Assembly: GCA_000002435.2 (NCBI GenBank)
Contig: CM018793.1
Source of the DNA: Giardia intestinalis
Lineage: Eukaryota
Reading direction: 5' to 3' (one strand)
Length of the DNA stretch: 64,000 nt
Shown one piece after another: positions 60,001 to 64,000 of this stretch. The position numbers were made by a program. Positions within the stretch are counted from its first letter, which is position 1. Each line of letters opens with the position of its first letter.

Positions 60001-63000
60001 ACGCATGTCGGCGGCAGACTCCTCGGGAGCAATTTGCGGGGGTCTCGATGGGGTGGCCGACGCCCAGTGAACGACTCCAAGCCACCCTTTAGTGTCTGCG
60101 CTGTCGCTCCACGAGAGTGCGTAGTGGGATGCAGCCGGAATCCCCGTGTGCGGGGGCCGACAGTCAACGGCAGAAAGTTCGGCACCCCGTGTTCCCACGA
60201 CGTCTCCGATCGCAGTACTGGCGGGGCCTGACGGCGCTTCTCTTCTTAATTCGGAACGAGTTAAGGAGTTTCCGCCGTAGGATGGCCGAACTGGCGGCTG
60301 AGGGAGCTGTGCGATGCGTCAGAGACTGTTAGAGATTCATATTGTGTATTGTGCAATGACCGATATGCATGGGTGTCCCACCGAAGACCCGGTGAAGGAT
60401 GGCACCGGAGATGAGACAGGATGACCCCTGGTGGAGGAGACCACGGTGCGGGCTTGCCTGCAGATGCCGTGACTAAAATCTCAGCCCGTCCAGGAGTTTA
60501 ACGGAGGTCATGCGACCGAATACCGAGGCCTACCGGAGAGCCGCATCGCCCCTGCACGAGCCAGCAAGCACTGCCTTCGACCCGACCACAGTTGAGAGCG
60601 CCCATGTCCGTGGATGCCGTCGGTCAGGTCCCTGAAGACCACCCTGCTCACAGCCCCAGGGATCCTCTGCAGACTCTGATTTCTATATCCCTGGGGTAGA
60701 TGTTTGCAGATAGCGGCACAGGGCTCAGCAAAACCGCCAGAAGATCCGCAGCACACTGTCATTAACCATGACGTCCTGTGGTATTCATTCCATGGCTAAG
60801 CCACCAATAATGGCACTGGAACTGGAGTAAGACACTTCTAGGGTGCGACTACAGGACCGTGGAGGAGCTTCCTTCCCACGAAGGAGACCCTGCAGCTAGG
60901 GCGTGGTCCATCAACTCTTAGCACTGCACACCTTGGTAGAAGCAGAGCCAAGCCCACACTTAGAAATCGATGGCTGCTCTGTTGGACCCCGCACACGATG
61001 CTAGCTATAGAAAAGAGCCCGGGCAAGGAGATCACGCGGACCAGGTGTACCCGGACTGAGAAGCGTCTACTTTATCAAGTAACGGTAACCGGTCTATGCA
61101 CACAGATCATGTTTGGCGACAAGCTCCCCTGTAGCTCATGTATACACTGCGAACCGCTGCTTAGAAGCCTGCGTTGGAGATGCTGCAAGACACCAATGGC
61201 TGAAAGGTGTGACTAGCCGTTCTTCCAGCTATCATCTCTCTGGATGCGCCGGGTACTTAAGGTGATAGTCCAGCATTGCACGCCTTGACTGCCACGGGCC
61301 TTGTGCATAGCCGACCAGGTGCCCGACACACGCCGCTTAGGAGTGCCCAGACCCCACGGTGCTGTAGTTGGGCTGCTAGGATGCGAGAGGTGGTGCACAG
61401 AGGCGCATATTAGAGTCAAGATCCATGTATTTCGCCTGCCCAGGTGGGCAGAAATGTTAGAGCGTCTAGACGGACTTAGTGCGTATCGCCCGAAAGTGAA
61501 GAAGCTGTTCGTGTAGGATCTGCATCGAACAGTCGCGTCACTGAGAGAGGAGGCTCATGTCTTCTTATGACCAAGGAGCCTAGCAACAACATTTACACAG
61601 CAATGCATACTATCGCAATGGACTTTCCTTGTGGGCAGTGTTAAAATGTTCATGTGCCATGTCGTGAGGCCATGTCACATTCTGCATCTCCTGCGCCAAC
61701 GTCATCGCTGCCTATTAGTGCAGAACCTGGCTATCTTGGAAGGCTTCCTCAAGTTCGTCTATACCTTTCTCGAAGAGGGTCCTTGGTAGTGGAGCCAGCT
61801 TTATGAGTGCTGTCCACCTCCTAGCAGAGCAAATTGACGGATGATGCACATGCGGGCTATACACTTTTCCGAAGCTTGTAGGGTACGGTGTTATGGTGGC
61901 TTTAACGATACACAAGCCATGCCCACCTGCAATAGATAGCCTCGATAGGATGCTCTTGAGTAGGGCACCAGTCAGCTGTCAGTCCTTGGGTACCGCAGAA
62001 AAGCACCAGTGCCTTCTTGTTCTGCACTGCAGCGTGCTCACAGCGACACGCTGAAGGATGCATGCGACCCGGTGGAGGCGGCTTCCACTGCTATCTGATC
62101 GCCCCTTAGTGTGAGCGTGATTCGGCGGGCAATGTTGTACTTGGCAGGTTTAGCATTCGCTTACTTGGCGCTTGCCGATCCAAAATCGTGCACCAACTCT
62201 CAAAATTGTGCATCTGGAACTAACTGTCTAGATGTCAATATAAATGGCCAGCAAAAAGAGATTTGCACAAAATGCGAGGCCACCCACGTCCCGGTCGAGG
62301 GGGCGTGCCAGGCGAAGGACGGGCAGGACAAGTGCACGCCGCAGGACGCCCCCGACGGGACCTGCAAGGCGTGCCAGGGGAGCACCTACCTCTACAGCGG
62401 AGGATGCTACGCCGCGTGCCCCGACGGATTCTACGGAAAGGGCGACAACACATGTGCCAGCTGTGATAGCTCCTGTGACAAGTGCGAGGCCAAGACTCCC
62501 ACGAGCTCACGCTGTACGAAGTGCGCTGTCACCCACGTCCCGATCGACGGGGCCTGCGAGACCATAGCCGCCGCAGGGGCCAAGTGCACGGCCAAGAGCA
62601 CCCCCGACGGCACGTGCCAGTCGTGCAAGGGAGAGAACTATCTATACAGAGGCGGCTGTTATGTCTCGTGCCCTCAGGGAACACCAAACTCTGAGACTAA
62701 CACATGCGATGGAGTCCCCGCCCCTGATTGCAATCTTCCTAACTGCAAGTCATGTCCTGGCGGCACGTGCACAGAGTGTAACGACGGATTTGTTCTAGGT
62801 GATGATAAAAATTGCGTGCCTTCTAGCGTCAACAAGAGCGGGCTCTCCACTGGCGCCATAGCGGGCATCGCCGTGGCCGCTATTATTGTCGTCGGGGGTC
62901 TCGTCGGTTTCCTCTGCTGGTGGTTTATCTGCAGGGGGAAGGCATAAATTTAGGTAGTAAACGTGTCTCCTATTACACCCACTTACTCCATAGTTTCGAC

Positions 63001-64000
63001 GCCGCTATTCTACGAGGTCGCTGAGTTACCTGTCTCCGAGCATCCACTGGATTCTGTGGCAGGACCGCGCCTCCATGTTTTGCCGTGCCCGCTTCTGTAT
63101 GGCAATGAGCACCCCCTACTATTGTACAACTATTCCACCCAGAGGCAGGCGACACACAGACCCTTGGCTCTGATAGGCGCCTCTGTGCACCACCTCTCGC
63201 ATCCTAGCAGCCCAACTACAGCACCGTGGGGTCTGGGCACTCCTAAGCGGCGTGTGTCGGGCACCTGGTCGGCTATGCACAAGGCCCGTGGCAGTCAAGG
63301 CGTGCAATGCTGGACTATCACCTTAAGTACCCGGCGCATCCAGAGAGATGATAGCTGGAAGAACGGCTAGTCACACCTTTCAGCCATTGGTGTCTTGCAG
63401 CATCTCCAACGCAGGCTTCTAAGCAGCGGTTCGCAGTGTATACATGAGCTACAGGGGAGCTTGTCGCCAAACATGATCTGTGTGCATAGACCGGTTACCG
63501 TTACTTGATAAAGTAGACGCTTCTCAGTCCGGGTACACCTGGTCCGCGTGATCTCCTTGCCCGGGCTCTTTTCTATAGCTAGCATCGTGTGCGGGGTCCA
63601 ACAGAGCAGCCATCGATTTCTAAGTGTGGGCTTGGCTCTGCTTCTACCAAGGTGTGCAGTGCTAAGAGTTGATGGACCACGCCCTAGCTGCAGGGTCTCC
63701 TTCGTGGGAAGGAAGCTCCTCCACGGTCCTGTAGTCGCACCCTAGAAGTGTCTTACTCCAGTTCCAGTGCCATTATTGGTGGCTTAGCCATGGAATGAAT
63801 ACCACAGGACGTCATGGTTAATGACAGTGTGCTGCGGATCTTCTGGCGGTTTTGCTGAGCCCTGTGCCGCTATCTGCAAACATCTACCCCAGGGATATAG
63901 AAATCAGAGTCTGCAGAGGATCCCTGGGGCTGTGAGCAGGGTGGTCTTCAGGGACCTGACCGACGGCATCCACGGACATGGGCGCTCTCAACTGTGGTCG

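What the first reader, a model, noticed from the sequence alone, without database searches (positions are those of the whole stretch)
60586..64000. Intact VSP gene sitting in the loop of a second inverted repeat (at least 829 bp arms, extending past the window)
Arms 60586-61414 and 63172-64000 are exact reverse complements. They enclose a 1.76 kb unique segment whose only gene is the 271-aa VSP (62132..62947). The arms carry no convincing coding sequence. Read-through transcription from either side would give a stem-loop with the VSP mRNA in the loop. Recombination between the arms would flip the gene. VSP expression is thought to be controlled post-transcriptionally or epigenetically with small-RNA involvement, so a natural hairpin-forming VSP locus deserves attention. 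The repeat may be much larger than what is visible here.
Basis: partly seen in the sequence, partly recalled or inferred. Interest (0 to 1): 0.7.

Follow-up and report, generated by a model that had tools for sequence, protein, structure and literature searches.

The report
Inverted duplication flanking a Giardia VSP
A real, near-perfect inverted repeat of at least 838 bp brackets an ordinary, self-contained surface-antigen (VSP) gene on Giardia WB chromosome 5; its geometry matches the inverted duplications already known around VSP genes, and nothing in the sequence shows that it regulates the gene.

Summary
The repeat is real. Arms 60583-61420 and 63163-64000 are reverse complements: 838 nt with 3 mismatches, of which 824 nt are exact. 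The outer end is cut by the window edge. The window is Giardia intestinalis WB chromosome 5 (2020 PacBio assembly). The loop gene is VSP GL50803_0050116, with every VSP hallmark, including its own initiator (CAATGTT) and VSP-type poly(A) signal inside the loop.

The arms have no coding, RNA-family or VSP-like content. They share no 14-mer with the VSP or the rest of the window. A hairpin transcript would therefore put arm sequence, not VSP sequence, into dsRNA. Flipping the loop would move gene, promoter and terminator together.

The geometry matches the roughly 20 published inverted VSP pairs in this genome: near-identical arms, a near-abrupt inner edge and a ~1.7 kb unique spacer. Their spacers often contain VSP-like sequence. 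All arm differences lie in a 35-nt imperfect inverted zone at the inner edge. That is the signature expected of fold-back-primed inverted duplication, or of a gene-conversion edge.

Verdict: one more instance of a known structural class, with an intact VSP in the spacer rather than in the arms. True arm length and any transcription could not be checked. Interest is low to moderate.

The parts
60583..61420 (.). Left arm of the inverted repeat. It is exact over 60583-61406, with 3 mismatches in the last 14 nt. The outer end is undefined because its partner runs off the window.
63163..64000 (.). Right arm of the inverted repeat, truncated by the end of the window.
61407..61440 (.). Left half of the imperfect inner junction zone. 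It pairs with 63144-63176 at 26 of 32 ungapped columns plus indels. I interpret it as a pre-existing short imperfect inverted repeat, or as the edge of gene conversion.
63144..63176 (.). Right half of the imperfect inner junction zone.
61421..63162 (.). Single-copy spacer (loop), 1742 nt, or about 1703 nt if the decayed junction zone is counted with the arms.
62132..62947 (+). VSP gene GL50803_0050116 (XP_037902336.1 / KAE8305781.1), 271 aa. It has a signal peptide, 32 Cys, 8 CXXC motifs, a transmembrane domain and the CRGKA tail. It also has an internal 249-nt repeat unit.
62130..62136 (+). VSP initiator / Kozak-like element CAATGTT (consensus PyAatgTT) spanning the start codon.
   Evidence: consensus from PMC2996952; listed as 'caatgtt' in preprint Table S1
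62948..62964 (+). VSP-type extended poly(A) signal ATTTAGGTAGTAAACGT. It matches ACTTAGRTAGTRAAYRY with 1 mismatch, and the AGTAAA hexamer is at 62956-62961.
60174..60293 (-). 5S rRNA gene, 290 nt outside the visible end of the left arm. It would be duplicated if the arms extend 410 nt or more further.

Best explanation
This is a genuine DNA-level inverted segmental duplication. It lies in a GC-rich, gene-poor VSP island of Giardia intestinalis WB chromosome 5. It belongs to the same structural class as the published inverted VSP/CRMP pairs and the beta-tubulin inverted repeat in this window.

A single-copy spacer of about 1.7 kb holds a complete, autonomous VSP gene: initiator, signal peptide, CXXC ectodomain, transmembrane domain with CRGKA, and a VSP-type poly(A) signal. 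This spacer is bracketed by non-coding arms of at least 838 bp.

Inferred origin: one arm is a recent copy of the other. It was made when a broken or stalled 3' end at the far side of the spacer folded back and annealed to a short imperfect inverted match (61407-61440 / 63144-63176). It then copied the flank in reverse. This leaves perfectly identical arms next to an imperfect junction.

The VSP is expressed, or kept silent, like any stand-alone VSP, from signals inside the spacer. The repeat itself is a structural by-product. It can support occasional flip-flop inversion of the spacer by homologous recombination, and it breaks short-read assemblies. It has no demonstrated regulatory role.

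Shown: the repeat, its edges, the gene and its signals, and the lack of content in the arms. Inferred: the fold-back origin, recency, and functional neutrality.
For: Repeat geometry and identity.

Organism and gene identity: the VSP is 100% identical to KAE8305781.1 / XP_037902336.1 on the 4,018,654-bp WB chromosome 5.

Autonomous gene: Pfam VSP hit. Initiator and poly(A) signal both lie inside the loop.

Arms are empty: no VSP-like tblastn hit, no Pfam hit, no Rfam family, and no k-mer of 14 nt or more shared with the rest of the window.

Same class as known structures:
- Adam 2010 reports 14 identical inverted pairs with an 'abrupt divergence' 139-729 nt from the ORFs. The implied unique spacers are 1365-2986 nt, median 1698. 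Here the spacer is 1703-1742 nt.
- Xu 2020 reports 19 pairs and 6.9% of the genome duplicated.
- The preprint's Table S4 reports a VSP-like region in most tail-to-tail spacers.
- A second inverted repeat in this window has 2334-nt arms and a 3185-nt loop carrying two genes.

Fold-back signature: there are 0 differences in 824 nt, while all differences sit in the 35 nt at the inner edge. Chance of 26 or more matches in 32 in-register columns is about 4e-11. Human fold-back inverted duplications show spacers of 766-70,466 bp and short inverted homology at the spacer/duplication junction (PMC3907307).

Against an assembly artefact: the two junctions differ in sequence, so both exist as distinct consensus sequences. 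The VSP is absent from the 2007 Sanger assembly, where inverted pairs terminated contigs.
Against: The outer boundary of the repeat and the right flank are outside the window and could not be retrieved. The full structure is therefore unknown.

The imperfect junction zone is equally explained by an old duplication whose arms are homogenised by gene conversion that stops short of the edge.

No read-level data were available to exclude mis-assembly or to test for both loop orientations.

No RNA or small-RNA data were examined, so 'no regulatory role' is an argument from sequence logic, not a measurement.

Antisense VSP transcripts are common in Giardia. The - strand has no AGTRAA hexamer across 60000-64000, so a - strand read-through hairpin is not excluded.

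No orthologous locus with or without the right arm was found in other isolates.
Confidence: 0.65

Rival explanations
1. Old inverted duplication kept identical by gene conversion. The arms are ancient. Intrachromosomal conversion continually homogenises them except for the last ~35 nt at the inner edge, which has drifted. Function is the same as in the best explanation, that is, structural. Only the history differs.
For: Differences are confined to the edge of homology. The other inverted repeat in the window shows a mosaic pattern, with all 30 mismatches in one 122-nt patch (25947-26068) and perfect identity elsewhere. That pattern is typical of conversion tracts. Evidence for recombination among VSP genes is published (PMC2996952).
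Against: About 20-25% divergence in the edge zone against 0 of 824 in the rest needs a very sharp conversion boundary. A recent copying event primed at a short imperfect inverted match explains the same data with fewer assumptions.
Confidence: 0.25
2. One reading: a regulatory hairpin locus. Read-through transcription makes a long stem-loop RNA with the VSP in the loop. This RNA feeds the Dicer/RdRP/Argonaute pathway and contributes to VSP silencing or switching.
For: A full-length transcript of either strand would fold with the arms paired. There is no AGTRAA hexamer on the - strand between 60000 and 64000. Most VSPs show more antisense than sense reads (preprint). RNAi involvement in VSP control is established in the literature (Prucca 2008, from my own knowledge).
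Against: The VSP sequence would be in the single-stranded loop, not the stem. The arms share no k-mer of 14 nt or more with this VSP or any other sequence in the window. The VSP's own start and poly(A) signals lie inside the loop, and two + strand AGTRAA signals precede the right arm. The known identical inverted VSP pairs would be far better hairpin sources, yet have no shown role. No transcript or small-RNA evidence is available.
Confidence: 0.07
3. A functional invertible cassette. Recombination between the arms flips the VSP, and orientation affects its expression. The effect could come through the neighbouring 5S rRNA gene, local chromatin, or collision with outside transcription.
For: At least 824 bp of perfect inverted homology is an adequate substrate for homologous recombination. 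Widespread intra-isolate inversions enriched for VSPs were predicted from nanopore reads of WB (PMC7048089).
Against: Gene, initiator, 711 nt of upstream sequence and the poly(A) signal all move together. No recombinase gene lies nearby. Published work found no DNA rearrangement linked to VSP switching for the loci studied (PMC2996952).
Confidence: 0.08
4. Assembly artefact. One arm is a spurious copy created by chimeric or fold-back PacBio reads, or by mis-joining in a repeat-rich region.
For: The structure is seen in only one assembly. The VSP protein occurs on a single contig in the 15-billion-protein collection. A conflict in the 5' region of WB chromosome 5 has been reported (PMC11169602). 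I could not check reads.
Against: Missed-adapter artefacts give spacer-less perfect palindromes at contig ends. This structure has a 1.7 kb asymmetric spacer with an intact gene. Its two junctions differ by substitutions and indels. It has the geometry of about 20 independently confirmed inverted pairs; vsp1267 was cloned as a pair before any genome project. The assembly had 200x coverage plus optical maps.
Confidence: 0.08
5. The arms are long terminal inverted repeats of a foldback-type mobile element that carries the VSP as cargo.
For: The overall shape fits: long inverted ends around a unique centre.
Against: No transposase or other domain is present. No further copy of the arm was found in the window, in five related Giardia loci, or in the JGI metagenome scan. 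Relatives of this VSP in other isolates sit in other contexts without the arms. The outer ends are not visible, so target-site duplications cannot be checked.
Confidence: 0.03

Closest known systems
Identical inverted VSP (and CRMP) gene pairs of Giardia WB (vsp1267 pair; Adam et al. 2010, PMC2996952; Xu et al. 2020, PMC7000408; preprint 10.1101/2022.03.07.483299)
   Same: Same genome and same GC-rich, gene-poor VSP context. The arms are near-100% identical and inverted, with a near-abrupt inner divergence point. The unique spacer has the same size: published pairs imply 1365-2986 nt with median ~1.7 kb, and here it is 1703-1742 nt. VSP-type sequence is present in the spacer, as reported for most tail-to-tail pairs.
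   Different: Here the duplicated arms contain no VSP ORF, at least in the 838 nt visible, and none lies within 7 kb to the left. The spacer holds an intact, annotated VSP rather than a VSP-like relic. GL50803_0050116 is listed as a non-duplicated VSP.
Fold-back inverted duplications with a single-copy spacer (human: Hermetz et al. 2014, PMC3907307; similar events in yeast and tumours)
   Same: Inverted copies are separated by a normal-copy spacer in the kb range (766-70,466 bp in humans). Short, sometimes imperfect, inverted homology sits exactly at the spacer/duplication junction.
   Different: Human cases are terminal, being coupled to a terminal deletion or a dicentric intermediate, and are megabases long. 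This one appears interstitial and small. The outer junction is unseen and the mechanism is inferred, not observed.
Hairpin-RNA (inverted-repeat) endo-siRNA loci of animals, plants and fungi
   Same: A long perfect inverted repeat with a spacer would form a long dsRNA stem if transcribed as one unit.
   Different: In such loci the stem carries the sequence of the regulated target. Here the stem matches nothing else in the window and the VSP lies in the loop. No transcription or small-RNA evidence is available.
Large inverted repeats that flip their spacer by homologous recombination (plastid IR, yeast 2-micron circle, herpesvirus segments)
   Same: Long identical inverted arms flank a unique segment, so isomerisation by recombination is expected.
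   Different: No dedicated recombinase is present, and the setting is chromosomal. No evidence of both isomers is available.

Membership tests
Giardia variant-specific surface protein (VSP) gene | C-terminal transmembrane domain followed by the CRGKA tail | tested here: met
   The translation ends ...GGLVGFLCWWFICRGKA. Pfam PF03302 gives 99 bits.
Giardia variant-specific surface protein (VSP) gene | N-terminal signal peptide and a Cys-rich ectodomain with multiple CXXC motifs | tested here: met
   32 Cys (11.8%) and 8 CXXC motifs. The signal peptide MLYLAGLAFAYLALA is listed in preprint Table S1.
Giardia variant-specific surface protein (VSP) gene | Initiator / Kozak-like PyAatgTT at the start codon | tested here: met
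   CAATGTT at 62130-62136. The consensus comes from PMC2996952.
Giardia variant-specific surface protein (VSP) gene | Extended poly(A) signal ACTTAGRTAGTRAAYRY within about 28 nt of the stop codon | tested here: met
   62948-62964 matches with 1 mismatch and is the only such match in the window. It is listed in preprint Table S6.
Giardia identical inverted VSP/CRMP pair | Two identical Cys-rich ORFs in inverted orientation inside the arms | tested here: not met
   No VSP-like tblastn hit in the arms or anywhere in 53754-62100. The gene is listed as non-duplicated. Only the part of the arms beyond the window is untested.
Giardia identical inverted VSP/CRMP pair | Near-identical arms ending at a point of abrupt divergence | tested here: met
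   824 of 824 identical, then a 35-nt decayed zone, then no similarity.
Giardia identical inverted VSP/CRMP pair | Unique spacer of about 1.4-3 kb | tested here: met
   1703-1742 nt here, against 1365-2986 nt (median 1698) computed from Adam 2010 Table 5.
Giardia identical inverted VSP/CRMP pair | VSP-like region, pseudogene or retrotransposon relic in the spacer | tested here: met
   The spacer contains a VSP, here intact. Published spacers carry a 'VSP like region'. No reverse-transcriptase domain was found in the flanks.
Fold-back-type inverted duplication | Inverted copies separated by a single-copy spacer | tested here: met
Fold-back-type inverted duplication | Short inverted homology at the spacer/duplication junction | tested here: met
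   61407-61440 against 63144-63176: 26 of 32 ungapped columns match, P about 4e-11 in register. A gene-conversion edge is an alternative cause.
Fold-back-type inverted duplication | Outer junction, and an ancestral 'empty' site lacking one arm | not testable with these tools
   The right flank lies beyond the window. The WB chromosome could not be retrieved. No orthologous locus was found.
Hairpin-RNA / endo-siRNA locus | The stem carries the sequence of the regulated target | tested here: not met
   The arms share no k-mer of 14 nt or more with the VSP or the rest of the window. The rest of the genome was not tested.
Hairpin-RNA / endo-siRNA locus | Both arms on a single transcript, with small RNAs mapping to the arms | not testable with these tools
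   No RNA data are available here. On the + strand, AGTRAA signals at 61495 and 62956 lie between the arms; the - strand has none.
Invertible DNA switch (phase-variation type) | Inversion separates or joins a promoter and a gene, with a site-specific recombinase nearby | tested here: not met
   Initiator, gene and poly(A) signal all lie inside the spacer. No recombinase-like domain was found in the flanking ORFs.

The most novel reading that the evidence does not exclude
The locus is transcribed right through, most plausibly on the - strand, which has no poly(A) hexamer. This gives a hairpin with a stem of 838 bp or more and antisense VSP RNA in its loop. Dicer processing of the stem would release that antisense RNA, or seed RdRP-dependent spreading into the loop. 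Alternatively, recombination between the arms flips the VSP relative to the adjacent 5S rRNA gene, which may be duplicated, with an effect on its chromatin state. Under either version, GL50803_0050116 would be a VSP with a locus-specific, repeat-dependent silencing or switching behaviour. The ~1.7 kb VSP-containing spacers of the known tail-to-tail pairs might be relics of the same device.
Probability: 0.05. Interest if true: 0.65.

Novelty: new member of a known kind. Interest (0 to 1): 0.22.

Why it matters
Practically, the repeat explains why this VSP was missing from the 2007 assembly. It also warns that reads, small RNAs and structural variants over 60.6-64+ kb will multi-map or be mis-called.

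Biologically, it adds one case to the still 'cryptic' inverted duplications of Giardia VSP regions. This case is informative because the arms are non-coding and the intact VSP sits in the spacer. The imperfect 35-nt inverted match exactly at the edge of otherwise perfect arms gives a concrete, testable clue that these structures arise by fold-back priming. If the same junction signature is found at the ~20 VSP pairs, it would explain how the VSP repertoire duplicates. It would not by itself change the picture of how VSP expression is controlled.

Tried and rejected
Extending the window to the right failed. Exact-protein look-ups found nothing on record for the VSP (271-aa and 278-aa GTG-start versions), for its identical database entry, for the neighbouring 269-aa ORF, or for that ORF's paralogue. 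The WB assembly seems not to be indexed.

Other searches for the arm also failed. A 25-mer from the arm gave 0 hits in JGI metagenome contigs. Flank k-mers and neighbouring gene IDs were absent from the preprint's supplementary tables.

Related loci were fetched through VSP relatives (L001, L002 from isolate DH, L004 from P15, L005) and through the 269-aa ORF family (L003). They share only the VSP, up to ~590 nt of its upstream region, or the 2-kb repeat. None has the arm sequence, an inverted repeat or a 5S gene. Short-read assemblies would break at such repeats anyway.

I looked for hidden content in the arms and flanks. VSP tblastn, Pfam on stop-free segments, Rfam at a relaxed threshold, tRNA search and the extended poly(A) motif as a pseudo-VSP marker found nothing except the 5S gene.

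Rejected idea: the arms are part of the dispersed repeat that carries the 269-aa ORF. That repeat spans only about 56591-58579, with weak similarity to 59036.

Rejected idea: this is a head-to-head or tail-to-tail VSP pair seen from the inside. No VSP end lies at the expected 140-730 nt from the inner edge.

The endo-siRNA paper of Liao et al. 2014 could not be read. No paper mentions GL50803_0050116 in its main text.
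Full report
**1. The observation**

The repeat finder reports one inverted pair at the right end of the window: arms 60583-61420 and 63163-64000, 838 nt, with 1742 nt between them. Base-by-base comparison gives three mismatches (61407, 61411, 61416). The exact stretch is therefore 60583-61406 against 63177-64000, which is 824 nt.

Position 64000 pairs with 60583. These are minor corrections.

BLAST and a gapped local alignment carry weak homology a further ~20 nt inward, to 61440/63144. 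After that there is none. In 20 shuffles of the window the longest exact inverted match was 14-18 nt, so chance is excluded. The outer limit of the repeat is simply the end of the window. Hence 838 nt is a minimum.

**2. Where the window comes from and what the gene is**

The 271-aa ORF at 62132-62947 is 100% identical to a VSP of Giardia intestinalis WB clone C6. That protein lies on a 4,018,654-bp contig, chromosome 5 of the 2020 PacBio assembly. In the supplementary tables of preprint 10.1101/2022.03.07.483299 it is GL50803_0050116 / XP_037902336.1 on NC_051860.1. It is listed there as a non-duplicated VSP.

It has every defining VSP feature:
- Pfam PF03302.
- A signal peptide, 32 Cys and 8 CXXC motifs.
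- A transmembrane domain plus the CRGKA tail.
- The initiator CAATGTT across the ATG at 62130-62136 (consensus PyAatgTT from PMC2996952).
- The VSP-specific extended poly(A) signal directly after the stop codon. Positions 62948-62964 match with one mismatch, and this is the only such match in the window. It is also listed in the preprint's Table S6.

The gene has only new-assembly accessions, so it was missing from the 2007 assembly. Adam et al. noted that in that assembly inverted pairs 'prematurely terminated the contigs'.

**3. The arms and the surroundings**

The arms contain nothing recognisable.
- Their longest ATG ORFs are 84 and 72 aa, and these are not in the protein collection.
- No Pfam match.
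- No VSP-like tblastn match with 135 Giardia proteins.
- No Rfam family even at E <= 1.
- No other copy in the window.
- No 14-mer shared with the rest of the window.

To the left lie three features:
- A 5S rRNA gene at 60174-60293 on the - strand, 88 bits, 290 nt beyond the visible arm end.
- Further left, a ~2-kb dispersed repeat (56591-58579) carrying the 269-aa ORF GL50803_00137682. This is one of seven copies in WB. The arms and the 5S gene are not part of that repeat, since locus L003 shares only 56591-59036.
- The whole region from ~53.8 kb to the window end is GC-rich (0.55-0.63) and almost free of genes. Xu et al. and the preprint describe this as typical for VSP surroundings.

**4. 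Comparison with what is known in this genome**

Adam et al. 2010 described 14 identical inverted VSP pairs. The ORFs lie 2190-3847 nt apart, and the flanks stay 'nearly identical up to a point of abrupt divergence' 139-729 nt from the ORFs. From their Table 5 the implied unique spacers are 1365-2986 nt, median 1698 nt. The spacer here is 1703-1742 nt.

Xu et al. 2020 confirmed 19 pairs with long reads and found 6.9% of the genome duplicated. The preprint counts 20 VSP pairs. It reports that the spacers of tail-to-tail pairs fall into a few families of very similar sequence. Nearly all of them contain a 'VSP like region'.

This same window holds a second example of a gene-bearing spacer. Its arms are 25286-27619 and 30805-33138, carrying beta-tubulin plus a VSP-like tail. 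Its loop is 3185 nt and holds an M20 peptidase gene and a 487-aa ORF.

The architecture 'identical inverted arms, ~1.7-3 kb unique spacer, VSP-type sequence in the spacer' is therefore a known and recurrent feature. What differs here is that the arms carry no VSP, as far as can be seen, and the spacer VSP is intact.

**5. How it most likely arose (inferred)**

All differences between the arms sit in the last ~35 nt at the inner edge: 26 matches in 32 ungapped columns plus three gap positions. The other 824 nt are identical. In-register similarity of that strength has a chance probability of about 4e-11, so the zone is truly homologous, yet it is imperfect.

[quoted passage not shown] A broken or stalled 3' end at the distal copy would fold back, anneal to the proximal copy and copy the adjacent flank in reverse. 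The primer zone stays imperfect and the new arm is a perfect copy.

Human inverted duplications show exactly this layout. Their single-copy spacers are 766-70,466 bp (median 3.4 kb). Short or homeologous inverted sequences sit at the spacer/duplication junction (PMC3907307).

The alternative is an old duplication homogenised by gene conversion that stops short of the homology edge. The data cannot exclude this. The patchy mismatch pattern of the other inverted repeat in the window shows that conversion-like mosaics do occur.

**6. How it most likely works**

The VSP's initiator and poly(A) signal lie 710 nt and ~200 nt inside the spacer. Giardia transcripts start at or next to the initiator and end 10-20 nt after AGTRAA. 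The mRNA should therefore span about 62130-62980 and contain neither arm.

A + strand transcript entering from the left would meet AGTGAA at 61495 and AGTAAA at 62956 before reaching the right arm. The - strand has no AGTRAA hexamer between 60000 and 64000. About two would be expected, so this is not significant. Antisense VSP transcripts are common. A - strand read-through hairpin therefore cannot be ruled out.

But the double-stranded part would be arm sequence, which matches nothing else in the window. The VSP would be the single-stranded loop. This is the reverse of what a silencing hairpin needs.

Recombination between the arms would flip the spacer. Gene, initiator and poly(A) signal would flip together, so no promoter switch results.

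My reading is that the repeat is a structural product of break repair or replication in a recombination-prone VSP island. The VSP is regulated like any other stand-alone VSP.

**7. Artefact?**

I could not inspect reads. Several points argue against an artefact:
- The spacer is long, asymmetric and carries an intact gene.
- The two junctions have different sequences.
- The geometry equals that of independently verified pairs.
- The assembly had 200x coverage and optical maps.

I leave about 8% for mis-assembly.

**8. What could not be done**

The WB chromosome could not be retrieved through any route. No copy of the arm exists in the five related loci fetched or in JGI metagenome contigs. The true arm length, the right flank, the outer junction and any orthologous 'empty' site remain unknown.

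One indirect bound exists. The 269-aa ORF has only one annotated copy with this exact sequence. So the arm should end before 58163, which makes it shorter than about 3.3 kb. Whether it includes the 5S gene is open.

**9. Verdict**

The feature is a new member of a known kind, Giardia inverted segmental duplications associated with VSP regions. Its most useful aspect is the junction signature, which suggests how such duplications form. Interest is low to moderate.

Noticed in passing
window 60174-60293 (- strand): A complete 5S rRNA gene (Rfam 88 bits) lies 290 nt outside the visible end of the left arm, inside the gene-poor VSP island. If the inverted repeat extends 410 nt or more beyond the window, the VSP would be bracketed by two divergent 5S genes.
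   Followed up: partly
window 56591-58579 (ORF 57354-58163, +); also L003 9224-11193: A ~2-kb dispersed repeat carries the 269-aa ORF GL50803_00137682. There are seven near-identical copies in WB on chromosomes 1, 3, 4 and 5, including an identical pair on chromosome 3 separated by one gene. Relatives at 33-65% identity occur in other Giardia assemblages. The N-terminal ~150 aa are strongly conserved (motifs RIYHWYRETH and KYPRQELRMTYNN) and model confidently as an all-helical domain (pLDDT > 90). The C-terminus is Pro-rich and disordered. There is no Pfam, PDB-sequence or significant fold match; the only hints are weak Myb/HTH-like hits (Reb1, SNAPc, Tc3). Published expression is near zero.
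   Followed up: partly
window 25286-27619 and 30805-33138 (loop 27620-30804); third copy 4913-6276: This is a larger inverted repeat with 2334-nt arms that carry a beta-tubulin gene and a VSP-like C-terminal fragment. The outer edge of the arms falls at the end of the VSP-like tail. The 3185-nt loop holds an M20-peptidase gene and a 487-aa ORF. All 30 mismatches between the arms lie in one 122-nt patch (25947-26068) inside the VSP-like part, which looks like a conversion or mosaic patch. A third beta-tubulin copy at 4913-6276 differs from the 30851-32214 copy at only 4 positions.
   Followed up: partly
window 62264-62421 vs 62513-62673; proteins P0006, P0001: The VSP contains two diverged copies (~73-79% identity) of a 249-nt (83-aa) unit. 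Close relatives in other isolates look like copy-number variants of the same unit: P15 194 aa (one unit), WB 271 aa (two), DH 362 aa (three). An old-assembly WB VSP (P0005, 421 aa) shares the first ~95 aa almost exactly and then switches to a different body, which is a mosaic.
   Followed up: partly
L001 (contig end 674 nt after the VSP stop) and L004 (679 nt after the VSP stop): In two independent short-read assemblies (an ENA metagenome and isolate P15), contigs carrying relatives of this VSP stop at almost the same distance downstream of the gene. This suggests a repeat boundary there. The two tails share no detectable similarity with each other or with this window.
   Followed up: partly
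window 21061-23526 (- strand): An 821-aa Cys-rich ORF has VSP/HCMP-like tblastn matches (up to 39% identity to VSPs). It is presumably a high-cysteine membrane protein, lying between the tubulin copies.
   Followed up: no
window 60000-64000, - strand: There is no AGTRAA poly(A) hexamer on the - strand across the whole arm-loop-arm region. The + strand has three. About two per strand are expected by chance, so this is not significant on its own.
   Followed up: yes
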